From Rozella allomycis CSF55 (Eukaryota): a stretch of 56,100 nt of DNA. Position numbers and translations under genes: made by a program. Each line of letters starts with the position of its first letter. The stretch's first letter is position 1. Of the stretch, positions 1,183 to 44,442 are shown one piece after another. The stretch covers positions 1 to 56,100 of the forward strand of contig KE560559.1 of NCBI GenBank assembly GCA_000442015.1, given 5' to 3'. Under the pieces are notes generated by a model that was not told where the DNA came from, did not search any database, and saw only the letters and a program-made list of their open reading frames with translations.

Positions 1183-3015
<1,833 letters not shown>

Positions 3016-3325
3016 GGAGAAAGGTTCTAAATCTATTGTGGAACAATTTTATGTATCCAAAGGAATAAAGATGAAACTTTTTAATTTTTAGTTTAATCCT
3101 TCCACTTAAACACAGGATTTCTTTTTAATAAGTTAAAGAATTTATTTATAATAATCTTTCAAATCAGCCAACGCGAAGGAATAAGCCTTGAGAATCTCAA
3201 TTTCTTCCCTACTAGGTTTCCTAAGGTTTAAACTGTCATAAAAAATTAATGATTAAATATACTGATAGACTATTTTCTGTTAAATGAATATTATAAAGGA
3301 TTAAGTTTACAAAATTTAAAGAAAT

Positions 3326-3529
3326 ATGTTTTTCTTCGTTGGTGGCATTTCTTCAAAGACAAGAATATTAAGAAAGAATGTTTCCTGTCCAGCATGTGAT
3401 AATCCGAACGCTGTAGTTAAGAGATTGGATAGCGTACTTTCTGCCTTTTTTCTTCCCTTATGGACTATAAGAAAGGGTGAAGAATTCATTGAATGTACAC
3501 ATTGTGGATGTCTTACGCGTAAAAAATAA
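3326..3529 (+). CDS. Small zinc-ribbon protein (zinc_ribbon_15-like), intronless
   Basis: MFFFVGG...CPAC...FFLPLW...CTHC: two CxxC knuckles with an FFxP motif between them. Confidence 0.75.
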   Translation: MFFFVGGISSKTRILRKNVSCPACDNPNAVVKRLDSVLSAFFLPLWTIRKGEEFIECTHCGCLTRKK

Positions 3530-3779
3530 CTCCTTGAATTGATGTGGTCATTAAACGATATTTATCATTGGCTTTAATGTATGAAATTGGTAATTCAAAG
3601 TTCTATAAGTATATTATTCCTTTTCTTAATTATAATTTATGACACCATAATGCCCTGATCTTTATTCAACAATTAGCTTTCGCGTAAACAATCATTTATG
3701 ATTTTATTTCGTTACAACTTATTATTTGTATTTATCTTTAATATTTGATATCATATTATCTCGTTGTACTTACACTTAG

Positions 3780-6518
3780 AGTTTAAAAATAGCAACTCCT
3801 ACCTCCCCTGTTTCGTATGCTCTACTTCATTCTCATTCTCTTATTCACTATCCATATACACGCAAAGTAACCAATTTCTCTATTGTTAATTTTAGTACAT
3901 TTAATCCAGGTACTGACCATAACGGGGCGTACTCTATTCCTGTTTCAGACGGATTTTGTGAATCATGGCAAATTCGAAAGAACGGAATGTGTTTCGAAAA
4001 AGGCTCCCGTCCTTTTGTAGTTGTCCAATCCAAATTCATGGAGGATTATGTTGGTCCAAGTTCGAGTACAGACTCCCTGTTCGTTTTCAAGACTCTTTTG
4101 ACCTTTTACAGCGGAAGCACATACTCGCAAACTTATCCTTTATCAAATCAAACAGTTTATCTTAAATGTATGGATTTTAATTTGAAAAACGTGTTGGTTA
4201 CTGACTTGAATGGAAACTTGGTGTCAAAGAATGTGCCATTATCAACGTCATTAACAGATGATAAGTATTTGTTATTAAAAACGGATTCTCTTGGTAGATT
4301 GAGCGTATCAATACCCGCAGTTCAGCTGGTGAACGGAAAACAAAAATTAGCGCATACACTTCTTTTCTTTCGCACAGACTTTATGAACATGAATGAAAAT
4401 ATAATGATAACTCCGGATCTGCCTTTATTACACTCTATGGCAAAGGTTAAGTCCGGAAAAGACCTTTTGAAATCCAAAGATGGGAGGACTTTGGTAAATT
4501 CAAGTGTGACAGAACAAGATGCCGAGTTTCTTGCCAGTATCTTGAAAAAGTTGGTAGGATCTATGATCAATTCTTCTCTTAAATTTCGGAAGCTTGATGG
4601 ACACTCTGTCATTTTGAGACCAGAGAGAACCAAATTTAGTGGGGGCACATTAAGCTCAAAGTATATTTTTTCTGAAGTTCAAGTGCCTAATTCACTGCCG
4701 GCAGTTACTCTGAGGGATGTTGTTAAGGTTGAAAGGCAACTTCCGGATGACATTGAAAATTCATTGGAAGGTATGTTCAAGAGTAAAGATAAGGACGAAT
4801 TGTGGAATGAATATAAAGCTATTCAATCGAGCATTGTTATCAAAAGAAAAGACGAAACAAATCCTCTAGTAATAATTGCCAAAGCAGCAGGTTCAATTGT
4901 TACTGAGACGGTCGATAATGTGGTACATGCAAGTGGAGTTATCATTAAGAAATTTTTGAGGACTATTGAGGATGCATACCAGCTAATTGTAAATATATTT
5001 GAAAAGTTTTCTATATTCGCGCGAGATCTAGCGAAATTCTTTGCAGCTTTATTCCGATGGGATGAAATAGTCAGAACAGCAGTTTTTCTTGAATCACATT
5101 TTCACAAAACGATAGGATATTTAAAATCTAACATTGCACGACGAAGTGAGGTTATAACCAGTACAATGATAAAGTTCATTGATTCTGTAGAAGACACCAT
5201 TAACAATGCAACTGAAATATTTCAGAACATGGGGGCTAATAAAATAGGAAGTTTCCATAATTCTTCAAACGCACCTAACGGGCCGAAAGGACCAGAAAGT
5301 ATAGTTGACATCCAAATTTCACGCATGATATCGTTTGTTGGAAATCATGCATCATATAAAGCTACCGATGAAGATGTGATTAAAGCATCTGATGAAATGG
5401 ATTCATTAAACAAAGTAGTTACAAGTTTTAGTTCCAAAGTGATGAATTTTACAGAAAGCGCGGGTTTGCAAAAGTTAATCAGCCTGGAGACTCAAAAAAT
5501 CAGTTATGAATTAGGGAAGGGATTGACAAATGCGAAGTGGTCAGAAATTTTTGTTCATATAGGAAACATTATGAAGCATTCAGGAAGGTATGTAGTTATC
5601 AAAGGGATCGAACTAATTTTAACCATTTTTGATACAATATTGCGAATATTTGGCAATATATTGCAAAAAAGGATTAATATTCCATTTGTAACGCAGATCT
5701 ATGAGTCCATAGTCATGAAAGGAGAGAGTAAGCTATCAGTTCTTTCTCTTGTTTGTCTTTTATCATCGATACCCCCATCGGTTTTATATCGACTGAATTT
5801 TGATGAACCCTTGTTTACCAAAAACGAATTGGATTTATTTGTAGCTACTGTTAATCCATCAAAATACCTTCTTGTCTGGGAAACTGCTGTAAACAAGAGT
5901 TTACCGGGTGTAAGAAAAACAACACCGCGAATGATGAGAAACAGACTATCTTATGCATTAGGTGGCGCATTCTTCTTTAACTCGTTAGTTGGAGGTATTA
6001 ATGGAATCGTGCTGTCAGCTTTCCCCTTTTTGTATTTCCTGCAAACGCCATTTCATTTCATTAAGCTCTTGTCTTCTTTTCCATATTCATGGTTTTATTC
6101 GGAGAATTCTAAAGCAGAAGTTGATTTGTTTAATTTCAAGTTTCTTGCGTGGTTATGGGAATGGATGCCATTTTTGATAGGATTCTCGAACGTTCATGGG
6201 TTCATAGGGTTCACAATGTTTAATTTTGTTACTGTTGTTGCCACTACACTTCCATCTATATGTTTTATTTTGGGTCTTTATATATTTCAAGATCGATTCT
6301 TGACGGAGACTCAAAACTCTGCTGACAGGACAGACATTGTTTTGAAAACCATTGCTAACTTGATGCTTCAAATACCGTCTATACTTAGTCTATTTCAAAG
6401 TGCTTGGGCTTTTCCGTGGATTAATGTGTTGATCAGTTCACTTCCACTTTTGTCATCAGGAATACATTTTACTCGCTTGGAATTAGCCATGAAACTAAAT
6501 GCAACCTTTTTTGTATAG
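3780..6518 (+). CDS. Large (about 900 aa) uncharacterised protein with hydrophobic C-terminal helices; start unresolved
   Basis: Frame is open from 3780 (first ATG 3987) to TAG 6518 without introns; a possible first exon starts at ATG 3698. Several TM-like segments in the last ~200 aa. Confidence 0.8.
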   Translation, partial: SLKIATPTSPVSYALLHSHSLIHYPYTRKVTNFSIVNFSTFNPGTDHNGAYSIPVSDGFCESWQIRKNGMCFEKGSRPFVVVQSKFMEDYVGPSSSTDSLFVFKTLLTFYSGSTYSQTYPLSNQTVYLKCMDFNLKNVLVTDLNGNLVSKNVPLSTSLTDDKYLLLKTDSLGRLSVSIPAVQLVNGKQKLAHTLLFFRTDFMNMNENIMITPDLPLLHSMAKVKSGKDLLKSKDGRTLVNSSVTEQDAEFLASILKKLVGSMINSSLKFRKLDGHSVILRPERTKFSGGTLSSKYIFSEVQVPNSLPAVTLRDVVKVERQLPDDIENSLEGMFKSKDKDELWNEYKAIQSSIVIKRKDETNPLVIIAKAAGSIVTETVDNVVHASGVIIKKFLRTIEDAYQLIVNIFEKFSIFARDLAKFFAALFRWDEIVRTAVFLESHFHKTIGYLKSNIARRSEVITSTMIKFIDSVEDTINNATEIFQNMGANKIGSFHNSSNAPNGPKGPESIVDIQISRMISFVGNHASYKATDEDVIKASDEMDSLNKVVTSFSSKVMNFTESAGLQKLISLETQKISYELGKGLTNAKWSEIFVHIGNIMKHSGRYVVIKGIELILTIFDTILRIFGNILQKRINIPFVTQIYESIVMKGESKLSVLSLVCLLSSIPPSVLYRLNFDEPLFTKNELDLFVATVNPSKYLLVWETAVNKSLPGVRKTTPRMMRNRLSYALGGAFFFNSLVGGINGIVLSAFPFLYFLQTPFHFIKLLSSFPYSWFYSENSKAEVDLFNFKFLAWLWEWMPFLIGFSNVHGFIGFTMFNFVTVVATTLPSICFILGLYIFQDRFLTETQNSADRTDIVLKTIANLMLQIPSILSLFQSAWAFPWINVLISSLPLLSSGIHFTRLELAMKLNATFFV

Positions 6519-6590
6519 GTAGAATATATAATAAACAAACAGATTTATTTTTTTCACGTTTTATACTTAATTGGAAACCTACCCTGGACA

Positions 6591-6943
6591 ATGAAGAATC
6601 CAATATTGATATTTTCACGATTCTATTCTTCAGTGGCAAGTGAGGCAACGCAATCTAATGCATTGAAGTATTTTGTTAACAGAACATCATATGGCAAATG
6701 TTTACCAGTATACAGCTTTTTTCGAAATGGCCGAACAAAGAAGAGGACTGTAGTGCGTAAAATAGATGGAGACTTGCGGGTAAAATATAGTAATTTAAAT
6801 GATAGGTACTTCGTGATGAATTGAAAGAAAAACTTGATCTTTCGGATGAAGAAATCGTAATACAAGACCGTCGAAGACATATAATAATCAAAGGGATTCG
6901 AGTTAATGAAGTGAAAGATTACTTGTATAATAAAGGATTTTAA
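6591..6943 (+). CDS. MRPL49: Mitochondrial ribosomal protein mL49 (Img2); 1 intron
   Basis: YFVNRTSYGKCLPVY...TVVRKIDGDL...IIIKG...EVKDYLYNKGF*, with an N-terminal presequence-like segment. Confidence 0.9.
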
Positions 6944-6966
6944 GGGTTAAATGATGATGAATTAAT

Positions 6967-9658
6967 TTATTTTTCATTTTCTTTTAAATCGCATCTAAGA
7001 CAATGATAAGGTTTTGACTGATGAGAAGATACACAATGCTGGTGATAAAAATGCTTGCAGATGAATAGAATGACATCTTCGTCAGAACATAGAATATTTT
7101 GGTGACAAATTTCACATTCATTACAACCTAAATAAATAATGTGCAACAATATACTTGAAACATGAATACCACGCCTTTGATCAAACGCAAGTCTGCGCAT
7201 TAGAGCTAGATAATCATTCAAGAAAATATTGTAGCAACCTTCTTGCAAGGAAAGCGAAATTTAGCGAGAAATGATTTCTTACTTGAAGACGATAATCGCT
7301 GAGAATTGAAAGCAAAGATTCTTTCAAATCTAAAATGTTCATCCCAGAAGGGATTTTTAAAACGACATTTTTTGCTTCTAATTTCCCGCCCAGATTGTGT
7401 AAAAGGGAGACGATAAATTCTGGTTTGTCTACCGAGTAGTTCACTAGATCTTCCCAAAGTTGATCATCTTCTTGTTCTTTGGCGAAATCTATTGCTGCCT
7501 GTGGATCTTTAATCTTTTCAATAATCAATTTCAATGCTTCCCTAAAATTCCCCATACGTCCAAGAAGGAAAATCATTTCTTCAGTTAAATCCAAAGACTT
7601 ACAAAGAGAAAAGGCCTTCTCTATTGAATAATAATTACTTGTGCGTAAAAACTGGATAATCTTTGGCCTATCTAGCTCACAATACAATTCCAATTGTAAA
7701 TCATGATATTTAAGTGCCACAGTAGAATCTTTCCAATAAATCTCATCTAAAAACTTTAAAAGACAATCTTTGTGTGTTTCTAAGCATTTAACAATTTTAT
7801 CAACCTGCATTACTGACCCTGGTCTAAAATTACTGAGAATTTTTCGTAATAATGAATAAGAAAATCTAAACCCATAGAGTTTTCAAACAAAAGTAATAAA
7901 TTTATATTATTTTCTATACAATCAAATAAATCGAATTGAAGAACAATTTTGAATACATCTGGATCCCTCAGCTTCAAATAACAAATTATTGCTTGTTCGT
8001 GCTGTCCATTAAGCGTTAACCTAAAATCAATTGAACTTATTTTTACAATTTGGCTAACGCAGTCAAAAGAATTTTATTATCTTGCTGGAATATCAAAGAT
8101 TCTTCCACTGCATTTATAAGCTCTGAAATGTTGTACAAAATGATTGGCCAAATCTTTATTGCTTCTAAAAACTCACTCTGGTTATTTTTTAAACAATCAT
8201 TCAAAATGGCTTGATAAACAGGAGGAGGCAATCTTGGATTATCCAATGGAATGTATGGCATTAACCAAAAACCATTTTGCCTATCGCAAAACTTTTTGAC
8301 CCAAATTTCCCAAAGTGCAGAATCGTCACTAAATATTACCGGGGTCATTCTAGCAGCTTCACTAAACTGACCTTACAACAGAGATGAAAGGAAAATACCT
8401 AAATCAAATGAATTTTCGAAATATTTTTCTCCTATTTGGATTAAAAGTAATCGATTGGTGTCTTTTTGTTGGTTTTGAGCTTTTATTTCAAGAATTGCTT
8501 TTTCATAAAGGTTATGTTGGCAAAGCCACTCGATGTGATCATCAAAACTTCGCGATGAACCAGAAATTATATCTCTTTCTCCAATAACATAAAATAATTC
8601 CCCTGATTGTAGAAATTCCATTTGATATCGAAAATTGGTTTGTTTGTAACTTGGTAGTAACAATACCTCATTTGAAATCTCATCTCCTTCAAAGTCCATT
8701 AGAATTATTTCTGGTCTTTGAATGTTTTCTTCAGGGGCAATCGACAAAATGCAAATCTTGCTCTGAAACAAACCCAAACCGTATGATTCAAAATCCCCGT
8801 GGAAACTTTTAGTAATTCGTACAATATTTTTCATTTTATTACTAAAATACTTGATTACTTTGATGAAACAAATTTGAATGTTATTCCCGTCGGCTATTAT
8901 CAAATTTCCATCCTTGTCCCATGCAATTTGACTGCATTCACTTGACTCGTCATTGATTACATTAATTCGTCCATTCGATAGATCAAACACTTTAATTTGC
9001 TTTACAAAATTTATATTTTTCTTACTTTGTCGATCCATGCGATAAAATTTTCCCTCCATTTGATCATTCTTACAGGCCCTTGACCATTGTGCAGAATCTT
9101 ATCTTTGTGGCCTAGCCAGCCTGTAATGAAAAACTTTTATCGTTACTCTTTTCATTTAAATACAAGTTTCCGTCAACCCCGCCAAACGCAAATGTCTTTG
9201 AACTAGAATAATTCGGTTCCAAAGAAATAGAAAGCAGAGGACTTCTTGAAAAATATTCATAAACATTGTTAGAATTTAAGGAATAAATGAACGCTTTTCC
9301 TGTTTTTTAAAACGTATAAATTTGTACCATCATCTCCACAAGAGGCTACGAATTCTTGTTTGCCATCAACATCGATACAATTCACTTTTGCAATATGTTT
9401 ATCAAACTTTTTTATTAGGTTCCCATCAAGGTCAAGAATTAAGATAGCTCCTCTGTCTGTCCCACACATTATGTATTTCTCAGACACTTTCAGTGACGTA
9501 AAGCTAGCAGATTTTTCATCCATCAATACTTTAAAACTTCCATCCAGTTTTTTATACTTTATTAATGGTTCATCAAAATCACCCATTTGAGATATGATGG
9601 TCTCTGGGTATTCATTTTCTATATCATGTTTGTTCGGTGAAATTGATTCTTTTTCCAT
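6967..9658 (-). CDS. VPS41: HOPS subunit Vps41 (WD40, CHCR repeat, RING-H2); at least 7 introns, one GT-CG
   Basis: EPLIKY; DDHIEWL; FLRTSNYYSIEKA; LLGRMGN; DDQLWEDL; C-terminal CxxC...CxHxYHxxC RING. Confidence 0.93.
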
Positions 9659-9702
9659 ACAATTGTTATTGTTGGCCGTTTTACGATTTCAGATTTTTCT
9701 AA

Positions 9703-11479
9703 ATGGTTTTAGAAATCATTGATAAACTTATTACAGATGATAAACATGAAAGATTATATCCTTGGTAAGCAACTTTATTCTGTTGAAAATGGCCTTGGTC
9801 CTTGTCTAAAGTTTTAGAAACTTGTAGAGATTTTCCAAGCGGAGTCACACCTGCTATTTTAGCTTCTGAACTTGATCTAAAAGTAATTAATGTTATAAAA
9901 GATGAATCAAGTGGAAAAAGAATCACAGCTCTTCCGTTGAAGATAAGCCAGTTGAATTTACTATAAGAAAGACGTCCTTTCTTCAAAATACCAAAATTTG
10001 TAAATATTTGGACTTCATAACATAAAGTAATATGGGATTTTGATGAGCAAGACCAGCAAATGCTTGTTCATCAAAGGTTTTGCGCCTTTTGGTTTGAAAA
10101 TAAGGGGTTCTTTCAAAACAAGCGTAAAATACTAATGTTTCCATCAAAATTGCTCAAAAAGAAGAATGTTAATTTGTTTTCACCATCAGAAAACTTAATA
10201 TTCCTCCTCGAGCAATTAGGCGAAATGGATACACAATGGGTACGTTTCGTCTTCAAGCCAATTGAGCTACCGTCATCCGGAAATGCAAACATTATAATCC
10301 AAATTTTGAGTAAATCTAAAGAAGAAAACGTTGACGCTCTGAGAAAGAAAAGAATCATATTTGGACTTTATAACGATAACATCATATTGACGATAAATTT
10401 CTGGAACGATGATATTAAATCCACACATCTTTTCAAGAGAAATGAAACACTTGCTATTTATTCTGCATATTGCACCCTGGATTCAAATGGATCACCGATG
10501 GTCGATGTTACACCAATGAGCACCCTTTTTAAAATCGTAGACAACATAAAAGTTGAAAAATTTGACTCTTTTAACAAAAATATGAAGTATAATCCTGAAA
10601 GAACATTTATTTCGAATATTGAAGATTCAATGTCACATCTCTACCTTTTAGGGCAAATTACCGCGATATCGCCAGACATGCCAGTCATAGAAAACAATGA
10701 AGTCATTCATCGTAGAGTCTTGAGAATAATGGACACCTCAGGTAATATTATCTCTATTGATATTTTTTAGGCCAATGTGATGTAACTGTCTGGAGAAATT
10801 TAGCAAACAAAGTTGTTAACACATGCAACGTTGGTCACCTTGTTTTCCTTAATTCTGTAGAAACCCAAAAGTCCGATAATGGGGTACTTTATATTAATGT
10901 AATAGATTCTCCCAATTCTGCCATATATAATTGTAAGGCAAGTAGATTATGACTCTATTTAGTGTCAAAACTAGACGCTTTCCTGACATCCCCAAGTTTA
11001 AATTCGATCTCAACAAAATTGTCACAAGAAATCTGTAAAGTCCAATTGGCACAGATTAAATTTAAAAGCGTTAATTTAGAGTTGTCTACTGTAATATTTC
11101 GACACGACAATTGTCCACAAATATTTCAGCGCATGGCAAATCAGGAATGTGGGTTTTGCAGAAAAAAATTCATTGTTGCAAATATGAAATCATACTTTAA
11201 CATAAATGTCACCTTCACTTTCATGGGTGATGTGCATTCTGGAATTCTGGAGGATGATCCAGCCAGGGTATACAGATTTTCATTACCAAAATAAGAAAAT
11301 TCTAGATTGTCATCCAGCAGACTTTCATTACGAAACGTTAAAGGAGAAACAAAATGTTGTAGAGGAAAAAGTACTATTTAGAGAATATTTGAGTACTTTA
11401 ATAGTAAAATTTTGAAAAAAGTTGATAAAGGTGAATCCATCGAATTTACAGTCTTTTATCATTTCAAATATAAACTAAT
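9703..11479 (+). CDS. Multi-OB-fold protein of the fission-yeast Cdc24/plant CDC24_OB family (not the Cdc42 GEF); first intron GT-TG
   Basis: PWPWSLSKVLETCRDFPSGVTPAILASEL; LVHQRF; PSENLIFLL; OB strands LYLLGQI...LRIMDTSG.CDVTVW; C-terminal HxxC...CGFC zinc motif. Confidence 0.7.
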
Positions 11480-11566
11480 AAATCATGCATAAAATACTAT
11501 AAGTTTTAAACTGTTTTTGATTGGCACGAGAATCAATTTAACTCAGCCACTACCCTTTCGATTCAC

Positions 11567-12592
11567 ATGACGAAAGACGCGACGCTGGACGTATTTTCTG
11601 CGTTTGGGGGTAGTAAGCGGATGCAATCAAGGTTCATGAATACCGCTTTGAATCAGGACGATTTTAGTAATCACTTTGACGATTTGAGCATTGGGGACCA
11701 GGCGCCTCAAATTTCATCACCGGACAAGCTTGAAACAATAACGAATACTATACGAACCTTGTCTGGAAAGAATGACATTATCGAGAAACGTCTCTTCGCC
11801 GTTGAGTTTAAGGGGTGTCAAATGGAACAATCTATGGCATCGATCGCAAATGACTCAATTTCAAATTACAAAGAACTTGCAAATACATTTAGCAACTCAA
11901 TTGAATCTATGAAGGCTGCGATATTAACAGAAATCAAGAATCAAAATGAGACAATTTCAAATGCTCTCAACGCTTGCGTACATGAATTACAATTAATTCG
12001 ACAGACTTTGGATAACAAAAAGATAATCGAGTCACGTGAAATCAAAGTTGTTGAAGAGGAATCATCAGTGGAAGGAGAAGACGAAAAGAAAAAGAGTAAT
12101 CGCAAGTTAAATAGCGAAACTGGAAGCTTTATTACAATTTACTTCGATGTCGGTGTTTACGTCCCTTATAGCGCGCTTAGAAAACAATTGAGACGCCACG
12201 GTGTTCAATCGTCCCTCATTCTCAATATGTATTACAGGAAGGGAGGAATCGTTGAAATCGTAACTTACAAGACATCTTCTGATGAATTGGAAAATGATCT
12301 TGATCGTATCTCAACTTGGAGCAGAGTAGATGATTATGACCCGGTTCTCGGATGCATGGATGCCAAAGACGTTAAAAAATCTGATCTTCAGTCAAGAGAA
12401 GTAAAATCTTTGATCTGTTCTTATTTTACTACTGTTCATGCGGCTATACTTACGTCAAACGGAAGCGAAACATTGAAGAGCTATTATAAATCTAAAGCAT
12501 TTGAGATTTGCGATGATTTCTTAAAGGGGACTTGCGTTTCTTCCTCTGGGTTGGATCTTGAAGCTCTTTGGCAATCTTCTAGCCAGAATTAA
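11567..12592 (+). CDS. Intronless coiled-coil protein with an RRM-like domain, resembling ORF1 of fungal non-LTR retrotransposons
   Basis: 341-aa ORF with an N-terminal heptad region, then FITIYF...SALRKQLRRHGV...ILNMYY...IVEIV...DDYDP; visibly CpG-richer than its neighbours. Confidence 0.6.
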   Translation: MTKDATLDVFSAFGGSKRMQSRFMNTALNQDDFSNHFDDLSIGDQAPQISSPDKLETITNTIRTLSGKNDIIEKRLFAVEFKGCQMEQSMASIANDSISNYKELANTFSNSIESMKAAILTEIKNQNETISNALNACVHELQLIRQTLDNKKIIESREIKVVEEESSVEGEDEKKKSNRKLNSETGSFITIYFDVGVYVPYSALRKQLRRHGVQSSLILNMYYRKGGIVEIVTYKTSSDELENDLDRISTWSRVDDYDPVLGCMDAKDVKKSDLQSREVKSLICSYFTTVHAAILTSNGSETLKSYYKSKAFEICDDFLKGTCVSSSGLDLEALWQSSSQN

Positions 12593-12621
12593 ATAAATGT
12601 CAATAATTACGAAATTTTCTA

Positions 12622-15341
12622 ATGAGAGAAATTAGGCAAAACGGCTTTATTCCAGCTAACAGTGATGCCTATATCCATTTTGTTTCGTTTTTATTATCAG
12701 ACGACGTGTCTAAACTGGAAAGTTTCCTCAAAATGAGGGACAGTGAGGTAGAGAAGGGTAACCTCCCATACCAACATTTCACTAAGAATTTTCCTTGTGT
12801 GGACGAGCATTTTCAGCCATTTACAGCAATATAAAAAACGTTGAATCCATCAACTCAATCTTGAATAGCTTAGAACCATTGATGTCAAATGAAGACGACA
12901 GAATCGCATGGGTATTATTTTGAAATTACGCTAAAAAGTTGTCAAAATGTATTTCTGCGCATTTACTTTTTCAAAAACAAGATCTTGTAAAATCAAAAGA
13001 AATCCTTCAGAGTGTCGACATCGTCACAACTCAATTTACTCGACATGGACTTCAATCAGCTGATATTCAGCTATATCTCTATATATTTCATTTAAGAACT
13101 AGGCTTCTTGGTACTCGTGATGATAAAACGATTAGACTAGGGGAACTTTTAAATAATGATATTGAGTTCTATTCTGAATGCTATGATTGGATGGTGTCAC
13201 ATTTTAAGATTTCAGCTGACATTCCCGAGCGGGTCCAAACAGAACATATTCTTTGGAGCATTTCTGCAAGCTCTAGTTTTCAAAAAATTAAAGACTATCA
13301 CAAGGCTTTACTAATTCTTCATCGGGCATTAATGAATGGAATCAACAAGAAAGAAGAAACTATAACTCTTTTGAATGAATATGTCAAGTTATTGGAAAGG
13401 CATATTAGAAAAAGAGAATACCGAGAATTAATTTCTTCACAATATGAAACAGCGTATACATAATAGATTTTAATCACTTAAGTGAGGACTATCAGTACGT
13501 GCCATCCAAACCAGAAGAAGATATAATTCTATGTTTATTTCATTTAGAAAAGCTTTTTGACGATCAATTTGCGAAAAATGATGAAACAAAAGGATATGTT
13601 AATAAGCGTTTTGCTGAATTGAGTTTTCACATTGCAAAGTGTGGATGCACCGCCACCCTGTGCTTTGTAAAAAGTTATAATCAGTTGAATTAGGTGAATA
13701 GATTTATATTTTTTCGTAGAATTGGTAACAATACAATTTAAAGTTTTAAAGGCACTGCATCAATATATAAAAAATTGTTCCTATCATTGATAGGATTTGA
13801 ATGTTATCGTGAAGCCAGTTTAGCACTTGACGAATATCTGACGTTGTCGCCAATGAACATGACAGACCCATTTGTTTGTCTCTTGGGCGTTCGATTACAT
13901 TTAATAATCAATAATGACGTAATGTACAATAATTTGAAAAATGAAAGGCTAAAAAGGCATTAGATTTGGCCTTATTGGCAAGAAAAGTATTAAGCGATCC
14001 TGATTTGGAAGGGCAATGTCATTATTTGTTAGGCTTGTGCTATGGAGAGTTGGCTAGACAAAGTAAGATTAATTAACTTCTTTAACAGCAATTGGCGTTG
14101 AAAAAGAAAGAAATCGCAATCAGAGTCTCCAAAACTTATCAAATGCAGTTGAGTTGGATCCTACCAATGATAAATTTTTATACGCTCTAGCTTTTGCAAC
14201 GGCTGAAAGTAGGGACATTGAAAAATCGTTATTATTTTTGAGAAAAAGCATAAAGTTGAATAATTCTTCACCGAATAAATGGCATTTGCTTATACTTTTA
14301 AAATCTTGTTCGAGAGATTTTCAAAGCTGTTTAAAATTGTGCGATCTTGTTTTGAAAGAAAGTGCTCAGGAAGAATTACTAAGGTACATTTAAAAATGTT
14401 ATAAAATAGTGTCTTGTTTAGTAAGGCAATAATTTTGTCAGACATGAATAAATTTGACGAGGCATTGAAATGTTGCCATCTGATTTTTGGTCTTTGGGCT
14501 TCTGTTACTAACAAAGTAAGCTTTAAGGATCATGTGGAGATTCTTGGCGCCAATTCTTTGTAAATTTCTATTTCGCATTTCATAGGGACAAACGAAAGTC
14601 TTCTGGCAGCATCTTTTTCGATTCTTTGGAAAAAGAAACATCCGTATCTATTTGCGAAGGCTCAATGCATGTAAAGGATTGGATTTCATGTTATCCTAAA
14701 AGCTTCAAGTCGTTCAAACGAGAATTAGAGAGGAATCTTAAAACTGAATATTACACTTCAAAATTACATCAAGATAGACAATTTTATAATTTATTTGGAT
14801 TCGGGACAACTAATTCATTTGGAGACTATAAGAGGCACCGCTCCGGACTTTCACCGGCTGACTTTCTTGCCATGGTGTGGCGCCAAGTTTCCACCCTCTT
14901 TATTAAACAAGGCCTATACACTGAAGCGCTATCAGCTGCCAAAGAAGCGAATAATTTAAATGAACTCTGCCCCGCCAACCTTGCAATACTAGGCACGTGT
15001 TATTCATTTCAAGGGGACATTGACAAAGCTCAATTGTATTTTGTCAGAGCTCTTGCAATATCGTCAAGTGATATTTCTGTTCTTTTAGCGTATGCTCATC
15101 ATCTCTCTCGTATGTCCAAAACACCAGAAATTGAAATTCAATTAAAGACTTACTTGGATCTTGTACTATCATTGGATCCCAATAACAATGAGGCAAAGTA
15201 AAGAAACATTTTTGATATATTAGATCATTAATTGTAAAGGCATTTCCGGATCAGTTTTCAGACTCGGAATTACTGGTTTTCATAAAGCAAGAAATTCAAA
15301 CTCCATTTTCTAATTGGAGCATTCTTCCTCCTGCAATTTAA
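12622..15341 (+). CDS. YPP1: TPR scaffold of the Ypp1/TTC7 family (PI4KIII-alpha complex); about 10 introns
   Basis: YVPSKPEEDIIL; LYALAFATAESRDIEKS...WHLLILL; C-terminal TPRs (RALAI, LDPNNNEA). Confidence 0.7.
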
Positions 15342-15488: not shown

Positions 15489-16445
15489 TCAAGTATTTAA
15501 ATTCATGATACTTAAGAAAAACGGGCGGTTTATTTTTATGCGCTTTAACTGCTGATTTGCATTGGGGCCGGTTCCGGCAAGTTCATTTGCTTCGGGTAAT
15601 GGCATTTGCTGCGTATCATAAACACTATGCGCGTTAGTGTTTACGGACATGTATTCGGGCTCTGGTGCTTCTGCGTACTGATTCATGTTTTGCATCATTT
15701 GATTGCCAGGAATAGGGGGTTGTTGGAAATATTGTGATTCATATCCCTGCAAATTGGCAGAACCAGCTAATGCCTGATTTTGGGCTTCAGCGTCCAGTAA
15801 AGATTTAATACTTGGTACTTGGAAGTTCATGTTTGTTCCGATAGATTGGTCGTAAATTTGTCCTATTTGTTGTCTTTGAAAATGCGCTGAATTAGGATCT
15901 ATGGAATTGTCTCTAAGTGCAATTAACTGGTCTCTAAAAGCATAGTCATCTTTAGAAGCCGGAGTGAATAATAAACCTGCTGTTTTTGCTTGTTCAATAT
16001 TTGACATTTCTTCTCTTTGAGATGTAGATGCCATACGATTTTGCTTATCATACTGCTCCGCCCTTTCTTGTCCTTGTTTTGCCATATAGTTTACAAACAT
16101 TCCTGTACCTAACGTAGTAAGTACTGTTGCACCCACATTTGCAGCGATACCTGGCGGTTTTTTTGCGCCTGCCGCGGCTGCGGAAGTACTGCCACCTGAT
16201 GTAGCTGCATGCGTCCCACCACCTGCATTCGCTGCTGAAGCTGTGTGTATATTGCTACCTGTAGGCGCTACACCATTGACATTTGGAGCGCTTGAAGGTC
16301 CAGGGGGAGCAGCGGGTCCAAAACTCGGCGCGCCTGTTGGGGGATATTGTGGATATTGTGGACCTATCCCACCATCAGGAATAGGATGAGTATTCAAAGA
16401 AACAATATATGCTGATGTTGTTAAATATGTTAGAAGCCAGTTCAT
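15489..16445 (-). CDS. Putative secreted low-complexity protein (P/G/A-rich N-terminus, Q/N-rich C-terminus)
   Basis: 318-aa intronless ORF with a signal-peptide-like N-terminus and one central hydrophobic helix (AANVGATVLTTLGTGMFVNY). Confidence 0.75.
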   Translation of the reverse strand: MNWLLTYLTTSAYIVSLNTHPIPDGGIGPQYPQYPPTGAPSFGPAAPPGPSSAPNVNGVAPTGSNIHTASAANAGGGTHAATSGGSTSAAAAGAKKPPGIAANVGATVLTTLGTGMFVNYMAKQGQERAEQYDKQNRMASTSQREEMSNIEQAKTAGLLFTPASKDDYAFRDQLIALRDNSIDPNSAHFQRQQIGQIYDQSIGTNMNFQVPSIKSLLDAEAQNQALAGSANLQGYESQYFQQPPIPGNQMMQNMNQYAEAPEPEYMSVNTNAHSVYDTQQMPLPEANELAGTGPNANQQLKRIKINRPFFLSIMNLNT

Positions 16446-38843: not shown

Positions 38844-41800
38844 ATGGCAGATCATTTTAGCAATATCGGGGCCCATCAATTACGGGACAAATTACTTTCA
38901 CAGCTTAGAGATTCAGGGAAGCTTGATAGCATTAGAGTAATCATAATTAGAAAAATTGATAGGCCACTCTGAAAAGCCGATTGCATATAGAGTTAATGTC
39001 ATTGAATGAAACAAAAAGAGAGGAAATAGACTCTCTTGATAAATTCTGTTTGTATGTTATTGCAGACTATTTGAAAAAGATGAATTTTGTATTAACTTTG
39101 AGTGTGTTGATGCCGGAAGTGCCAATGGTTGATGTAATTAGCAGTAGTAAATAAAAGTAGGTATTGGAAGGCGAAGATTTGATAAGAATGGGCAATAAAT
39201 TCTATGGCATAGAGTTGAAAGAGAAGAATCTATTGAGATCTATTATTGTGAACCTGGATGCAAGAAGTAATGGAAGCAGTGTGATGGAGATGGAAAAGTG
39301 GAAGATAGAAAAAGAGTTGGAGATTCAAGAGTATTACCGCAAGTTGAATGAAAAACAAGTGCAAATTTACAAGGAGGGTGAATTGATGATGATAAAGAGG
39401 GACTATGAAAATGAAAGGATGAAATTTAGATTTGAGATGGAAGCGAATATGAAGCATAGAGAAGAAGAATTGGCATTTAAAATGAATAATCTAATTAAAA
39501 GGGAAGAAGAGTTGAAGAAAAAGGAAGAGACACTGAGTGAAATATCGTTAAAATGTGAAGGGCTTGAAAGATCAATCAAGGAAAAGGAAGAAAATATGAA
39601 AAAGGAAAAAGAAGAGCAAGTTATGGAATACAAATTGCTATTGGAAAAGGAGCTTGAGCAGCGATCGGGGCATTTGATGAAGCAAGTTGAAGAGATTTCC
39701 AATATAAGAAACAATTTAAACATAATAATTCAAAAGCAAGTTGAAAAAGAGGTAGAAAAGGAGAAACTAAAACTTGAAGAAGAAATGTTAGAGAAGTTGA
39801 ATTTGGCGCGTAAAGATTTGAGAAGAGAATTTGAAAATCAGCCAAGAGTAGCAAGAGAAAATGAAGATGATTTGCGTCAAAATGAAAATGCTTTGCGACA
39901 AGAGCTTGAAGGGAGAATAAGAAGGGAATTTGAAGAAAAGTTTCAATTGGAGTTGCAAGAAGTCAAAAGGAGCTTTCTAGAGAGTAAAAAACCTCCAAAA
40001 GGGGAGAACGGAAAGTGGAAGAGGGAATGCCAACAGATGATAATAAAATTGGAAGTGCAATTGAATAGAAACAAAGATTTGACAATAAAGAACCAAGATT
40101 TGATAGTAGAGAATAAAGAATTGAGGAGAGAGTTAGCTGATGTGAGGTTGATTTTGCATAACAGAGTAATGAGAGAAGAAGGAAAGGAAAACCGAGCGAG
40201 AGAAGAAGTGAAAATCGTGAATGAGTATTCAGAGAGGGAAAGGGAATTGGAAAGGGAAATCAGAATGAAGGAAAAGGAGAATTATTTGATCAAGTTGAAG
40301 GGAGATGCTAGGAAGCAGGCAAGAACAAAGGAAGGAAGGAGACAAGAAAGAAACTTGCAAAATAATAAAGAGTTAACATTGCATAAAGAGCCCCACTTTA
40401 GCTGCAAAGAGCCATCATTGGAATCGAATGAAAATATAGATTTGATTATTAAAGAAATAGAAAAGAAAAAGAGAATAAAGAAAACAGAGAGTGAAGCGAC
40501 AAGTTTTGATATTCATTCGAGTGTGTTTGATCAAGAAGAAATAAAAGTTAGGGAAATGCAAAATATGAGAAAAAGAGGAGAATTTTTTGCAAAGGAAGAA
40601 GAAGCAAAGATTAAAGAATCACTGGAATCTGTTAGAGAAAGAGAAAAGGGTGAGAATGAAACAAAAAGGTTTAATTATTCTCCAAAGCAACTTAAAAGAG
40701 AAGCAGACTTTAAAGATGGCAATGAAGCAAAAAGTGCAAACATCAAAGTAGAAAATGTTGTTGAAAGCAAAGTGTTTAGGGTTGAAGATAGTGTGAATGA
40801 AGGTTTGGTTGATGGAAATCAATTGAAAGAGTTATCTGATAAAAGAGAAGAAATAAATTACAGAAATGATGAACCATTAGAAAAACCAAAAGAAGAGGAA
40901 GAAGTGCGAGTAGAATTTGATAGAAAAGTAGAAGTAGAATTTGATAGAAAAGTAGAAGAGATTGAAGCAAAAGAAGAAAAGGTTGACTGTCATCATGATG
41001 AAACAAAAGAATTCAAAATAGAGAAAGATGAACCATTTGAATTTAAAGGGAATCTAAACGAACAAAAATTTGAATGTGAGAGTGAGAAGGATTTCAAAGT
41101 AGAGATGGACTTGAATCAAATTGAATTGAAAGAAGAAATACAAAAGGATGAAATGGATGATAGGAAATACTTTGAACATGAACAATCTGAAGACTTGGAA
41201 TATAGAAAGGATGATGGGATTCAAAAGGATGACATTGAATCAAACGTGCAGATGGAGAGTGAATTGAGTGAAATTAGAGAAATAAACAGTGATTCAGAGA
41301 GTGTGAAAGTAGAATTAAAGAATGAAGAGAATGAAAAGAGTGAGATGCAAGAGGTGAAATATGAATCGGAAAGCAAATGGGAGAGTGAATTTGAAGATGA
41401 GAGTGAAATAAAAGAAGAAATAGAAAGTGAGCAAGAGAGTAGAAGTCAAGAGAATGAAAGGAGTGTATCAGTTATAATGGAAGTGAGCGAGAAGAGTATA
41501 CATGAAAGTGGCAACAGTATACAACAAGGCAATAAGAGTGACATACAACATGGCAATAAGAGTGATATACAAGGCAATAAGAGTGAAACTCAAAATATTG
41601 TACCAGTTCCATCAATAGCAAGGGATGAATCGTATCCAACAATAAGTGAAGCAATTTCATATTTGGAATCCAAAGAAGAATCAATTGTAGCCACACTAGA
41701 ATCAGTTACATTAAAATCAGCAGTAGAAGCACCGATTGAAAAGGATCTGGAATTCCAAAAGATACTCGAAGCGAATAGAAAAGAATACGTTGATGACTTT

Positions 41801-41896
41801 GAATCTGAATCATCAGTCAACACTCAATACAGGTAAAGAATAAACAGTTAAATGTTTAGTATTCCAGAAGAATCAATTCAAACTCAATCATGGTAA
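38844..41896 (+). CDS. OFD1: OFD1-like centriole/basal-body protein (TOF-LisH, coiled coils, acidic tail); 3 introns
   Basis: LRDKLLSQLRDSGKLDSIRATLKSRLHIEL...VIADYLKKMNFVLTLSVLMPE followed by extensive coiled coil. Confidence 0.65.
40909..40958 (+). repeat. 24-nt coding tandem duplication (VEFDRKVE x2)
   Basis: agtagaatttgatagaaaagtaga occurs twice in tandem. Confidence 0.85.
41508..41588 (+). repeat. Coding minisatellite (GNKSD/E units, about 21-24 nt, 3-4 copies)
   Basis: ggcaataagagtga occurs three times plus one degenerate copy. Confidence 0.8.
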
Positions 41897-41906: not shown

Positions 41907-44267
41907 TTAAAGTTCTTCATGTTCATCACTATGAATGTCTTTATCGTTTAGATTTTCTTCTGTAAGTTCTTGTTCACTTTCTTCTTGTTCAACTTCAACT
42001 ATATTTTCACCCCCTTCACCTTCACCCCCTTCACCTTCACTCCCCTCACCTTCTTCCTTTTCAACCCCTTGCTTGAGTTCAACAACTGGCTCAGCATTTA
42101 GATCCATTTGAAGTGAAATTCTCATCATCTTTTCAATTCTCTTTGCAAACCCTGGTTCATCATTAATCTTATAGCCAGATCTAAGACTGGTAGTTTCGTA
42201 CAATAGATGTAACATTTGATCTACAATAGATTCATCAGAACTCAATTTATCCAACAAAGTTACAATTAATGGATGTGATGGGTTAATTTCAAATATTTTC
42301 TTTTGTTTCGCATAAAATTCATTCAATGGATTATTCTTGTACAACGCTTCTTGAATCTTTTGCATTTGTGGTGAAATTCCAAACTTTTGACTAACAAGCG
42401 CAGATGGAGATTTAACAAGCCTTGAAGAAATTACAACTTTTTCAATCTCATCTTTAAATTTCTCTTGAATCTTTTCAATCAGTGGCTTAAATTTCTCACT
42501 CAAACTTTCAATCTCTTTTTTCTCTTCTTCATCTTCATCTCCAAACTCTAATCCTTCTTTAGCTACTGAAACAAACTCAAACCCTTGAAAGCTTCTAGTA
42601 TTCTGAACTAGAAATTCATCCAAATAATCAATAAAATACAAAACTTCATATCCCCTACCAACAACCTTTTCAATCAATGGACTCTTCTTCGCTTCTTTAA
42701 TTGAATCAGCTGCTAAATAGAAAATACTTTTTTGTCCTTTTTTCATTCTTTTCACATAATCTTCAAGGGTCACCATCTTAGATTTAGATCCAGAAATTTC
42801 CTTTTCAGATTCAGAATTTTGATCTTTTTTTTCTTTTTTAAAACTTGAAGAAAATTTTATCAATTTCAACAATTTTTCTTGATAATTTTTACTCTCCATA
42901 ACACCAACTTTAATCAATGATGAATACTCCTTGTAAAATGATTCATATTTCTCTTCATCTTCATCTTTCAATCTATTCAAATAATCTAAAACTTTTTGTA
43001 TTATTTTATTCTTCATCATCTTCAATATTTTATTTTGTTGAAGTGTTTCTCTCGACACATTCAATGGCATCTCATCACAATCTACAACCCCGGTAATAAA
43101 TGTTAACCATTTTGGTAAAAATTCACCCAAATCTTCTGTAATAAAAACCCTCTTCACAAACAATTTTATATTTCTCATTTCTTCCGGCGTTGGTTGGTGA
43201 TTCTGAAATGGATTGCTCTTGGGAATAAACAACAACACTCGGAAATCAACATCCCCTTCTGCCTTGAAATGCAAATGGCCAAGCGACTCTCCTCCTTTAA
43301 ACGCCTTGTAGAAATTCTTGTATTCTTCTTCTTCAACACTCTTAGGGTCTCTCATCCAAATTGGCTTTTGATCGTTAATTCTTTCATACTCTTGAATCTT
43401 CTTTTCAATCTTTTTCTTTTCCTTTTTTTCTTCCTTTCCTTCTTCCTCTTCTGCATCTTCAATCTCGTCATCTTTTTCTTCTTCTTCCTTACCCTGGTCA
43501 TCCCCCTTTACTTCTTCTTCACTCTCTTCAGCATCAACTTGGATTGTTTTGGTGGAATAAAGATAAATTGGAAAATTAATAAACTCGGAATGCTTCTTGA
43601 TCAATTCTCTCAATTTACTATCCTCTAGAAACTCCTTGGCATCTTCCTTCATATGAAGCAGAATCATCGTTCCTCTCTCCAATGTATTTCCCCTAACATC
43701 CTTTGAAATAGAAAAGCCTTCTTCTTCTCTAGACTGCCACACATATTGCTCATCTTCATTATTCTTACTAACAACTGTAATCTCATCTGCAACTAGAAAC
43801 GCCGAATAAAATCCAACTCCAAATTGTCCAATAAAGTTCTGAGTGCTATTCAATCCATGCTTTTCTATAGTCTGGAAAAATTCAGCTGTTCCAGACTTGG
43901 CTATCGTTCCCAAATTCTCTCTCAATTGCTCTTTCGTCATTCCTATACCAGTATCTCTAATCATCAACACCCCCTTCTCTTGATCAACGGCTATCGTGAT
44001 ATTCAAATCTCTCACTCCTCCCAACGCTCCTTCATCCCTCAAACTAGCAGTTCTTATCTTTTCCAAAGCATCACTCGCATTAGATATCAACTCGCGCAAA
44101 AATATCTCCTTGCTCTTGTACAATGAATTCACTATCAATTTCATCATACGCGAAACCTCAGTTTGATACGCATGCTTTGTCGTCTCGGCTACAGGAGGCA
44201 CACTATAATCGGGAACACTCGTTCCTAAAACTAGTCCAACAAATAAAAGTATCGCTAAACACTTCAT
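41907..44267 (-). CDS. HSP90B1: Endoplasmin/Grp94 (ER Hsp90), intronless
   Basis: Signal peptide MKCLAILLFVGLVLG; NSLYKSKEIFLRELISNASDAL; IGQFGVGFYSAFLVA; PLNVSRETLQQ; C-terminal HEEL retention signal. Confidence 0.95.
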   Translation of the reverse strand: MKCLAILLFVGLVLGTSVPDYSVPPVAETTKHAYQTEVSRMMKLIVNSLYKSKEIFLRELISNASDALEKIRTASLRDEGALGGVRDLNITIAVDQEKGVLMIRDTGIGMTKEQLRENLGTIAKSGTAEFFQTIEKHGLNSTQNFIGQFGVGFYSAFLVADEITVVSKNNEDEQYVWQSREEEGFSISKDVRGNTLERGTMILLHMKEDAKEFLEDSKLRELIKKHSEFINFPIYLYSTKTIQVDAEESEEEVKGDDQGKEEEEKDDEIEDAEEEEGKEEKKEKKKIEKKIQEYERINDQKPIWMRDPKSVEEEEYKNFYKAFKGGESLGHLHFKAEGDVDFRVLLFIPKSNPFQNHQPTPEEMRNIKLFVKRVFITEDLGEFLPKWLTFITGVVDCDEMPLNVSRETLQQNKILKMMKNKIIQKVLDYLNRLKDEDEEKYESFYKEYSSLIKVGVMESKNYQEKLLKLIKFSSSFKKEKKDQNSESEKEISGSKSKMVTLEDYVKRMKKGQKSIFYLAADSIKEAKKSPLIEKVVGRGYEVLYFIDYLDEFLVQNTRSFQGFEFVSVAKEGLEFGDEDEEEKKEIESLSEKFKPLIEKIQEKFKDEIEKVVISSRLVKSPSALVSQKFGISPQMQKIQEALYKNNPLNEFYAKQKKIFEINPSHPLIVTLLDKLSSDESIVDQMLHLLYETTSLRSGYKINDEPGFAKRIEKMMRISLQMDLNAEPVVELKQGVEKEEGEGSEGEGGEGEGGENIVEVEQEESEQELTEENLNDKDIHSDEHEEL

Positions 44268-44442
44268 CTTCAAACGTGGAACCAGGGTGGTAGAAATTTC
44301 CAGTAATTTGTACTCAAAAATTACCGAAAATTCAAAAAGAACGGAATAGACATTAAATATAATTGATAAAATATGAATGTATAATGTTGAATTATTTGTA
44401 TTCAAAATTTCAATGAAATAATTTCAATTTAGGCAACGTTAT

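What the first reader, a model, noticed from the sequence alone, without database searches (positions are those of the whole stretch)
7255..7282. Vps41 intron with a CG acceptor
Minus strand reads ...DYRLQ|gtaagaaatcatttctcgctaaatttcg|LSLQEGCYNIF. The 28-nt intron has a strong GTAAGA donor and a branch-like CTAA. Splicing restores the Vps41 D-Y-x-L-Q-x-x-L-x-E-G-C motif and keeps the RING domain in frame. With this phase-0 donor no nearby AG is in phase. The only GT-AG alternatives use a weak GTCTTC donor, are 49-52 nt long and delete the LQxxLxE residues.
Basis: partly seen in the sequence, partly recalled or inferred. Interest (0 to 1): 0.75.

Follow-up and report, generated by a model that had tools for sequence, protein, structure and literature searches.

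The report
Rozella Vps41 intron ending in CG
A 28-base intron in the Vps41 gene of the fungal parasite Rozella allomycis ends in CG instead of the near-universal AG; this is a rare but already known kind of oddity, and whether the cell really splices it there is still untested.

Summary
The window is a whole 56,100-nt contig of Rozella allomycis CSF55. On the minus strand, 7282..7255 is a 28-nt stretch, GTAAGA...TTTCG, inside Vps41.

Removing exactly these 28 nt joins DYRLQ to LSLQEGC. That restores the ungapped D[YF]x[LI]QxxLxEGC block seen in 8 of 8 orthologues and puts the RING finger in frame. The product scores 287 bits, against 261 and 255 for the GT-AG alternatives and 225 for the GenBank model.

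Donor and length are typical of the contig: 37 of 37 inferred introns start GTA and are 24-31 nt long. GT-AG introns sit at the same codon boundary in 6 of 53 environmental Vps41 loci.

The CG is in the DNA. Contigs of two read sets match the window there exactly.

No RNA covering the gene was found, so use of the CG is inferred. The main rival is a recent A-to-C acceptor lesion that diverts splicing to the out-of-frame AG 41 nt from the donor.

GT-CG introns are known at about 0.01-0.02% of introns in Drosophila and Ganoderma.

By-product: the GenBank model skips the RING through a 567-nt intron into an exon antisense to Img2.

Interest is modest.

The parts
6967..9658 (-). Vps41 gene of Rozella allomycis, revised extent: ATG at 9658, stop TAA at 6969..6967
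   Evidence: Pfam Beta-prop_Vps41, TPR_Vps41, Clathrin and zf-RING_Vps41 on the exon ORFs. 99% identity to GenBank O9G_003315. Exon map.
7255..7282 (-). The finding: a 28-nt intron-like stretch, GTAAGA...TTTCG, phase 0, with a non-AG (CG) 3' end
   Evidence: DNA confirmed in X2 and X7 contigs.
7277..7282 (-). Donor GTAAGA. The GenBank model uses the same donor.
   Evidence: GTA starts 37 of 37 inferred introns.
7255..7256 (-). Terminal dinucleotide CG where AG is expected. One A-to-C change at position -2 would turn a typical TTTAG end into it.
   Evidence: Acceptor profile. Reads.
7283..7804 (-). Upstream exon, ending ...SDYRLQ
   Evidence: TPR_Vps41 E 3.4e-45. PDB 7zu0_F Vps41 E 1.9e-26.
7155..7254 (-). 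Exon starting LSLQEGC, absent from the GenBank model
   Evidence: completes the D[YF]x[LI]QxxLxEGC block of 8 of 8 orthologues.
7128..7154 (-). Probable 27-nt GT-AG intron (GTATAT...TTTAG), phase 1. It is in frame and stop-free if retained.
   Evidence: Removing it raises the HMM score from 274.5 to 287.1 bits.
6970..7127 (-). Last exon: RING-H2 finger with all eight Cys/His ligands, followed by the stop at 6969..6967
   Evidence: zf-RING_Vps41 E 2.5e-6, 27.4 bits, below the cut-off of 30.3. Weak RING hits in PDB. Adds about 62 bits over the truncated products.
7239..7243 (-). The next AGs downstream (intron lengths 41 and 44 nt), both out of frame
7239..7290 (-). GT-AG alternatives of 49 and 52 nt, with donor GTCTTC at 7290
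   Evidence: Scores of 261.4 and 254.9 bits. No inferred intron lacks A at donor position 3.
9300..9327 (-). Intron 1, 28 nt, GT-AG
9121..9146 (-). Intron 2, 26 nt, GT-AG
9000..9025 (-). Intron 3, 26 nt, GT-AG
8372..8398 (-). Intron 4, 27 nt, GT-AG
8021..8046 (-). Intron 5, 26 nt, GT-AG
7805..7833 (-). Intron 6, 29 nt, GT-AG
6626..6715 (-). Terminal exon of the GenBank model, reached by a 567-nt intron 7282..6716. Probably spurious.
   Evidence: No Pfam hit, and it lies antisense to Img2.
6519..6943 (+). Img2 (mitochondrial large-subunit ribosomal protein) gene, convergent with Vps41, with a 26-nt GT-AG intron at 6780..6805
   Evidence: Img2 profile positions 1-39 and 40-84 fall on the two ORFs. 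Intron.

Best explanation
7282..7255 (minus strand) is a U2-type spliceosomal intron of the Rozella allomycis Vps41 gene. It is of the tiny 26-31 nt kind that fills this genome, and it sits at a codon boundary (LQ|xSLxEGC) that also carries an intron in other eukaryotes.

Its 3' end reads CG in the DNA. The simplest origin is one A-to-C change at position -2 of an ordinary TTTAG acceptor.

I infer that exon ligation still takes place at this CG, possibly inefficiently, because it keeps the G at -1 and lies at the usual distance from a consensus donor. That would give mRNA for a full-length Vps41 with its C-terminal RING finger.

Shown: the sequence, its presence in independent read sets, the fit of the 28-nt product to orthologues, the fit of donor and length to the contig's introns, and the shared intron position. 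Inferred: that the CG is used.
For: - Gene and organism: Vps41; Rozella allomycis CSF55 contig.
- Product fit: an HMM of 8 orthologues scores the 28-nt product at 287.1 bits. Other non-AG lengths (22, 25, 31 nt) score 282.6, 281.3 and 279.7. The GT-AG 49/52-nt products score 261.4 and 254.9. The truncated, read-through and GenBank products score 224.6-226.8.
- Motif: 8 of 8 orthologues have the block ungapped.
- Intron grammar: among 57 coding-ORF junctions, 37 have a shortest in-frame GT-AG of 24-32 nt. All 37 start GTA. Their lengths are 24 (2), 26 (11), 27 (8), 28 (4), 29 (7), 30 (4) and 31 (1).
- Shared position: 6 of 53 metagenomic Vps41 loci (5 distinct sequences) have a GT-AG intron at exactly this boundary.
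- The RING exon is a 97-codon open frame with all zinc ligands and a zf-RING_Vps41 hit.
- The CG is present in X2 and X7 contigs.
- GT-CG introns with RNA support exist elsewhere: 8 of 8 annotated ones in D. melanogaster have junction reads, and 19 are listed in Ganoderma lingzhi.
Against: - No RNA evidence at all.
- In this contig the AG that is used is the first AG at 24 nt or more from the donor in 36 of 37 introns. That rule predicts the out-of-frame AG at 41 nt here.
- No second credible non-AG intron was found in the 56 kb. A dedicated scan gave 2 hits, this one and a likely gene end. So there is no sign that this genome tolerates non-AG ends in general.
- All 8 fly GT-CG introns have a similar alternative splice nearby. 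Here the AG alternatives are out of frame.
- From recalled knowledge of spliceosome structures and yeast 3' splice-site mutants, the A at -2 contributes to 3' splice-site docking, and changing it usually impairs the second step strongly.
- An intact RING frame is equally expected if the change is recent.
- The contigs laid drop rare variants, so a minor AG allele is not excluded.
Confidence: 0.5

Rival explanations
1. Acceptor lesion. The intron is real, but its AG was recently lost (A to C). The spliceosome now uses the next AG (41 or 44 nt) or retains the intron. Both shift the frame, so this strain makes a Vps41 truncated after DYRLQ, without the last ~86 residues and the RING, or an unstable mRNA. 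The RING exon is then a still-intact relic.
For: The first-AG-at-24-nt-or-more rule holds in 36 of 37 introns and points to 41 nt. This is the only credible non-AG case in the contig. One substitution separates the end from a typical TTTAG. Recalled: baker's yeast Vps41 has no RING, so loss of it can be tolerated in some lineages.
Against: 41 and 44 nt lie outside the 24-31 nt range of the 37 inferred introns. The lost segment is well conserved: it adds about 62 bits, has all eight zinc ligands, and its 97 codons are open in AT-rich DNA. The change would therefore have to be very recent. Truncating a conserved tethering-complex subunit is likely costly.
Confidence: 0.33
2. A canonical GT-AG intron of 49 or 52 nt (7290..7242 or 7290..7239) is used, giving a Vps41 that lacks the 7 or 8 residues of the LQxxLxE block.
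For: These are the only in-frame GT-AG options that keep the RING.
Against: The donor is GTCTTC, whereas 37 of 37 inferred introns have A at position 3, and none exceeds 31 nt. The products score 26-32 bits below the 28-nt product. They delete a block that is ungapped in 8 of 8 orthologues. They also ignore a perfect GTAAGA 8 nt downstream.
Confidence: 0.04
3. The GenBank model is right: donor 7282 is spliced to the AG at 6717..6716 (a 567-nt intron), and the protein ends in 30 residues encoded at 6715..6626.
For: It is the deposited model (P0001), and it is GT-AG.
Against: 567 nt is about 20 times the contig's intron length. The exon has no family hit and lies antisense to the Img2 coding exon. 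It skips a conserved RING exon. The product scores 224.8 against 287.1 bits. I did not see whether the deposited annotation used transcript data.
Confidence: 0.04
4. The C at -2 is a sequencing or assembly error, or a minor or culture-specific allele. The real or common sequence has AG.
For: The assembly differs from the X2 and X7 contigs at 9 other places in 13 kb, so it is not error-free. Contigs hide rare variants. The places of most of X6's 86 differences in its contig 4935-11890 were not shown.
Against: Two read sets of different studies give contigs identical to the window across the site: X2 at word depth 491, with all 8 differences and its gap elsewhere, and X7 with 0 differences.
Confidence: 0.04
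5. No splicing takes place. The ribosome shifts +1 within the 28 nt and reads on into the RING frame.
For: The two frames differ by +1, and both are open over 7260..7217.
Against: It would insert about 9 unrelated residues into a block that is ungapped in 8 of 8 orthologues. The stretch has the donor, length and position of an intron.
Confidence: 0.01

Closest known systems
RNA-supported GT-CG (GT-NG) non-canonical U2-type introns, as catalogued in Drosophila melanogaster (FlyBase, PMC4528330) and Ganoderma lingzhi (PMC11590231)
   Same: A normal GT donor, with only the A at position -2 of the acceptor replaced and the terminal G kept. They are very rare: 8 of 60,223 introns in the fly and 19 (0.0206%) in Ganoderma (passages read).
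   Different: All 8 fly cases have a similar alternative splice nearby. Here no in-frame AG alternative exists, the intron is only 28 nt, and no RNA support is available.
The ordinary tiny GT-AG introns of Rozella allomycis itself
   Same: GTA donor, 28-nt length, AT-rich body, no strong branch consensus, and removal restores frame and homology. A paper on single-cell fungal genomes, which includes R. allomycis, reports fungal intron medians from 29 bp upward (PMC8042348, passage). Its Table S7 was not seen, so the species with 29 bp is not confirmed.
   Different: The last two bases are CG. All 37 inferred introns end AG, by construction of the scan, and the dedicated non-AG scan found no other credible case.
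Vps41, a HOPS tethering-complex subunit with a C-terminal RING-H2 finger
   Same: Beta-propeller, TPR/clathrin-repeat region, the D[YF]x[LI]QxxLxEGC block and the RING finger all lie in order on the minus strand.
   Different: The deposited Rozella protein lacks the block and the RING, because the annotation could not place a canonical acceptor.
U12-type (minor spliceosome) introns, which tolerate varied terminal dinucleotides (recalled)
   Same: A non-AG 3' end.
   Different: The donor is GTAAGA, not the recalled RTATCCTT-type U12 donor. No TCCTTAAC-like branch box is present. Not a member.

Membership tests
U2-type spliceosomal intron (GT-AG class) | 5' splice site GT with the species' consensus | tested here: met
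   GTAAGA at 7282..7277. GTA in 37 of 37 inferred introns; position 4 is A in 25 and position 5 is G in 9.
U2-type spliceosomal intron (GT-AG class) | 3' splice site AG | tested here: not met
   It ends CG (7256..7255) in the window and in X2 and X7 contigs.
U2-type spliceosomal intron (GT-AG class) | Length within the species' distribution | tested here: met
   28 nt, against 24-31 nt in 37 inferred introns and 26-29 nt for the six GenBank introns of this gene.
U2-type spliceosomal intron (GT-AG class) | Recognisable branch site | tested here: inconclusive
   CTAA ends 6 nt before the 3' end, but the contig's introns show no clear branch consensus: CTAA in 2 of 37, [CT]TAA in 13 of 37.
U2-type spliceosomal intron (GT-AG class) | Removal restores reading frame and homology | tested here: met
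   The 28-nt product scores best, 287.1 bits. The block is ungapped in 8 of 8 orthologues.
U2-type spliceosomal intron (GT-AG class) | Spliced junction seen in RNA | not testable with these tools
   No RNA holder was listed. The one RNA run laid (X9) has nothing on the gene.
GT-CG non-canonical intron | GT donor, CG at the 3' end, junction supported by transcripts | tested here: inconclusive
   The termini are met in DNA. Transcript support is untested.
U12-type intron | Extended donor (RTATCCTT, recalled) and a branch box near the 3' end | tested here: not met
   The donor is GTAAGAAA and no such box is in the 28 nt.
Vps41 (HOPS subunit) | Vps41 beta-propeller plus Vps41 TPR-like/clathrin-repeat region | tested here: met
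   PF23411 at 34.6 bits (cut-off 33). PF23556 at 155.1 and 86.9 bits (cut-off 27). PF00637 at 46.3 bits. PDB 7zu0_F Vps41 at E 1.9e-26.
Vps41 (HOPS subunit) | C-terminal Vps41-type RING finger | tested here: inconclusive
   PF23555 at 27.4 bits, E 2.5e-6, below the cut-off of 30.3, on the unspliced exon ORF. All eight Cys/His ligands are present.

The most novel reading that the evidence does not exclude
In Rozella, whose introns are squeezed to 26-31 nt and lack a clear branch consensus, the spliceosome sets the 3' cut mainly by distance from the donor and branch. It would need only the terminal G, so a CG end is spliced efficiently and constitutively. That would be a relaxation of AG recognition in the lineage next to Microsporidia, and more such introns would lie hidden behind truncated gene models like this one.
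Probability: 0.15. Interest if true: 0.6.

Novelty: new member of a known kind. Interest (0 to 1): 0.3.

Why it matters
If the CG is used, this is a constitutive GT-CG intron with no in-frame AG alternative, in a genome of minimal introns. That would be a handy natural test of how far 3' splice-site choice can rely on distance rather than on the AG.

If it is not used, this strain carries a truncated HOPS subunit.

Either way there is a practical result. The public Rozella Vps41 model is wrong at its 3' end: it has lost the RING finger and borrowed an antisense piece of the Img2 gene. The cause is that gene predictors insist on AG. Similar truncated models may exist elsewhere in this genome, which is widely used as the sister group of Microsporidia in comparative work.

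Tried and rejected
- Whole genome: none is held for this window, so no genome-wide census of intron ends and no search for splicing factors was possible.
- RNA: no RNA holder was listed. The one RNA run with the species label (X9) gave only 18-22-letter scraps outside the gene.
- Literature. A search for 'Rozella' + 'non-canonical' + 'splice site' found 0 papers. 'Rozella allomycis' + 'RNA-seq' found 35 papers, of which I saw the listing of 15; none was a Rozella transcriptome study by title. Searches on short introns and intron length gave only general statements. The genome paper (James et al. 2013, recalled) was not read.
- PDB sequence searches did not reach the junction.
- Close relatives in metagenomes: none with the single protein as query.
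- ORFs of other assemblies that would reveal the base at -2 through an F/L change in the read-through frame: none in the protein collection, only 2 distant hits.
- Earlier notes of this scan: none on this genome, and nothing relevant by words.
- A U12-type intron, a +1 frameshift, and splicing from donor 7282 to the acceptor at 7128 (155 nt, wrong frame) were considered and rejected from the sequence.
- First intron scans were too noisy or too ambiguous, and were replaced.
- tRNA and Rfam scans of the high-depth spot and of the whole window found nothing.

Full report
**What the window is.** A search with the exon at 7283..7810 (minus strand) found a 99% identical protein on a contig of exactly 56,100 nt. 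It is hypothetical protein O9G_003315 of Rozella allomycis CSF55, 768 aa (P0001). The window is therefore a whole contig of that genome. No whole genome is held for it. GC content is 28-37%.

**The gene.** The minus-strand ORF pieces between about 9690 and 6967 match Pfam Beta-prop_Vps41, TPR_Vps41 (155.1 and 86.9 bits), Clathrin repeat and, on the last ORF, zf-RING_Vps41 (27.4 bits, E 2.5e-6, just under the cut-off of 30.3). The best solved relative is yeast Vps41 in the HOPS structure 7zu0 (E 1.9e-26).

**The observation.** Read on the minus strand, 7282..7255 is 28 nt. It starts GTAAGA, contains CTAA and ends CG.
- The upstream frame ends ...SDYRLQ. If read through, it stops after 22 codons at 7216..7214.
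- The downstream frame is closed by TAA at 7263..7261. From 7254 it reads LSLQEGCYNIF... and runs on to a RING finger and a stop at 6969..6967.
- From this donor, AG dinucleotides end only 5, 41 and 44 nt downstream. Lengths 41 and 44 are out of frame and give a protein that ends 6-7 residues after DYRLQ.
- The only in-frame GT-AG introns are 49 and 52 nt, with donor GTCTTC at 7290.

**Is the CG in the DNA?** I laid contigs of four public runs on window 1-20000.
- X2 may be the source sample. Its 13,085-nt contig (3327-16412, word depth 491) has 8 differing letters and one gap. All nine are listed and all lie elsewhere (3872, 8418, six at 16241-16338, and a gap at 15562).
- X7 is from another study and year. 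Its contig over 6223-7312 has no difference.
- X6 covers the site with a contig that has 86 differences. Only those up to 5273 were shown, so it is uninformative here.
- Contigs hide rare variants.

An assembly error at the acceptor is therefore unlikely. A minor allele is not excluded.

**Which product fits Vps41?** I built an HMM from the eight non-Rozella orthologues (P0002-P0009). With it I scored C-terminal products made from window coordinates.

| Product | Bits |
|---|---|
| 28 nt removed | 287.1 |
| 22 nt removed (non-AG) | 282.6 |
| 25 nt removed (non-AG) | 281.3 |
| 31 nt removed (non-AG) | 279.7 |
| 28 nt removed, but the 27-nt intron 7154..7128 kept | 274.5 |
| GT-AG, 49 nt | 261.4 |
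| GT-AG, 52 nt | 254.9 |
| GTAAGA to AG, 44 nt | 226.8 |
| Read-through | 226.3 |
| GenBank C-terminus | 224.8 |
| GTAAGA to AG, 41 nt | 224.6 |

All eight orthologues carry D[YF]x[LI]QxxLxEGC without a gap. DYRLQ|LSLQEGC matches it residue for residue.

**The intron grammar of this contig.** I trained a codon-usage score on the long ORFs and paired neighbouring coding ORFs on the same strand.
- Of 57 pairs, 55 had an in-frame GT-AG. In 37 of them the shortest one was 24-32 nt.
- I had not restricted the third base, yet all 37 start GTA.
- Their lengths are 24 (2), 26 (11), 27 (8), 28 (4), 29 (7), 30 (4) and 31 (1).
- The remaining 18 shortest candidates were 15-23 nt (13) or 37-101 nt (5). 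I did not resolve these.
- The six introns of the GenBank model of this gene are 28, 26, 26, 27, 26 and 29 nt.
- An independent check comes from the + strand Img2 gene. Its Pfam profile positions 1-39 and 40-84 fall on two ORFs joined by a 26-nt GT-AG intron.

The 28-nt GTAAGA stretch is thus typical in everything but its last two bases. The GTCTTC 49/52-nt options are atypical in both donor and length. CTAA is not a reliable branch signal here, since it occurs in 2 of 37 introns.

**Shared intron position.** An alignment-based scan of metagenome contigs gave 79 Vps41 loci at 27-57% identity. None is a close relative of Rozella. I examined the 53 loci whose match reaches the last residue of the exon and dropped the other 26.
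- 42 continue directly into xSLxEGC.
- 5 continue in frame with a divergent motif.
- 6 (5 distinct sequences) have a GT...AG intron of 34-139 nt exactly after LQ, with the next exon starting two residues before the L.

That is the same phase-0 boundary as the Rozella 28-mer. It favours 28 nt over 25 or 31 nt, and it shows that introns at this position end in AG elsewhere.

**The GenBank model.** P0001 uses the same donor (7282) but jumps 567 nt to an AG at 6717..6716. It ends in 30 residues encoded at 6715..6626. That exon has no family hit and lies antisense to the Img2 coding exon. It looks like the result of a predictor forced to find an AG. I did not see whether transcript data guided the deposited annotation.

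**How it most likely works.**
- Shown: an intron-like 28-mer at a conserved intron position, with a consensus donor, normal length and a CG 3' end that is really in the DNA. Its precise removal gives the conserved protein.
- Inferred: it descends from a TTTAG acceptor by one A-to-C change, and ligation still occurs at the CG.

In favour of use:
- The terminal G is kept.
- No AG lies in the normal length window.
- The segment that depends on it is well conserved, adding about 62 bits, with all zinc ligands and 97 open codons.
- GT-CG introns with junction reads exist in Drosophila (8 of 60,223 introns, all 8 supported) and Ganoderma (19, or 0.0206%) (passages read).

Against use:
- In 36 of 37 local introns the AG used is the first one at 24 nt or more from the donor. 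Here that rule points to the out-of-frame 41-nt site.
- A dedicated scan found no other credible non-AG intron in the contig. It gave 2 hits, the other a probable gene end at 20348.
- All eight fly GT-CG introns have a similar alternative splice nearby.
- By recalled knowledge of spliceosome structure and yeast mutants, the A at -2 matters for the second step.

My estimates are about 0.5 for productive use of the CG, 0.33 for a recent lesion that truncates the protein, and small shares for the other rivals.

**Comparison and novelty.** It works like a U2-type intron but fails the AG criterion of the canonical class. It fits the known, rare GT-CG class in its termini, though transcript support is untested. 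It is not U12-type.

I found nothing in print on non-canonical splice sites in Rozella. The three-term search returned 0 papers. Other searches returned only general intron densities, such as 2.5 introns per kb, and fungal intron medians from 29 bp.

I rate it a new member of a known kind with modest interest. Its main concrete value is a corrected Vps41 gene model, and a warning that AG-only predictors may truncate genes in this genome.

Noticed in passing
window 6626..7282 (-) and 6519..6943 (+): The public protein O9G_003315 (P0001) lacks the LSLQEGC block and the RING finger. Its last exon (6715..6626, after a 567-nt intron) is antisense to the Img2 mitochondrial ribosomal protein gene. 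With the revised Vps41 end, the stop codons of the two convergent genes (6941..6943 and 6969..6967) lie about 24 nt apart.
   Followed up: yes
window 7128..7154 (-): A further probable 27-nt GT-AG intron inside the RING exon. It is a multiple of three and has no stop, so retention would only insert 9 residues. Removing it improves the fit to orthologues by 12.6 bits.
   Followed up: partly
window 3872, 8418, 15562, 16241-16338, 19165: The assembly differs from the X2 contigs at these places. X7 agrees with X2 wherever it covers (8 of the 9 substitutions and the gap), and X6 agrees at 4 of them (16241, 16260, 16270, 19165). 8418 changes a Vps41 codon from TTC (Phe) to TTG (Leu). At 15562 the reads lack one base inside the 318-codon ORF 16445..15492, so that gene model may carry a frame error.
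   Followed up: partly
window 3983..5273 (+): X6 contigs differ from the window at about 5% of positions inside the 912-codon ORF 3780..6515, which has no Pfam hit. X2 and X7 do not differ there. This may be a diverged allele, a paralogue or a variable gene.
   Followed up: no
window ~3118..3300: Word depth jumps about 15-fold in X2 and over 100-fold in X6, with many contig breaks and loose ends. This looks like a short dispersed repeat. It is not a tRNA and matches no Rfam family.
   Followed up: partly
window 13660..13750 (+): Between ORFs 13448-13690 and 13742-13960 no single tiny GT-AG intron fits. By eye the sequence looks like two or three abutting tiny introns, with a micro-exon of about 5 nt.
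   Followed up: no
window 39161..41833 (+) and 44423..41910 (-): Two long intron-free ORFs with extreme GC skew of about +/-0.4. The minus-strand one is an Hsp90-family protein (546.9 bits). The 891-codon plus-strand one has no Pfam hit and holds short tandem repeats.
   Followed up: partly
loci L007, L008, L017, L054, L061/L062: Environmental Vps41 genes carry a GT-AG intron (34-139 nt) at exactly the same phase-0 position after LQ. The other 47 of the 53 loci examined have none. The intron position is either old or recurrent.
   Followed up: partly
whole window: Introns are very uniform: GTA donor, 26-31 nt, A or T favoured at -3 and -4, and no clear branch consensus. Internal AGs up to 24 nt from the donor are skipped, which suggests a minimum-length rule.
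   Followed up: partly
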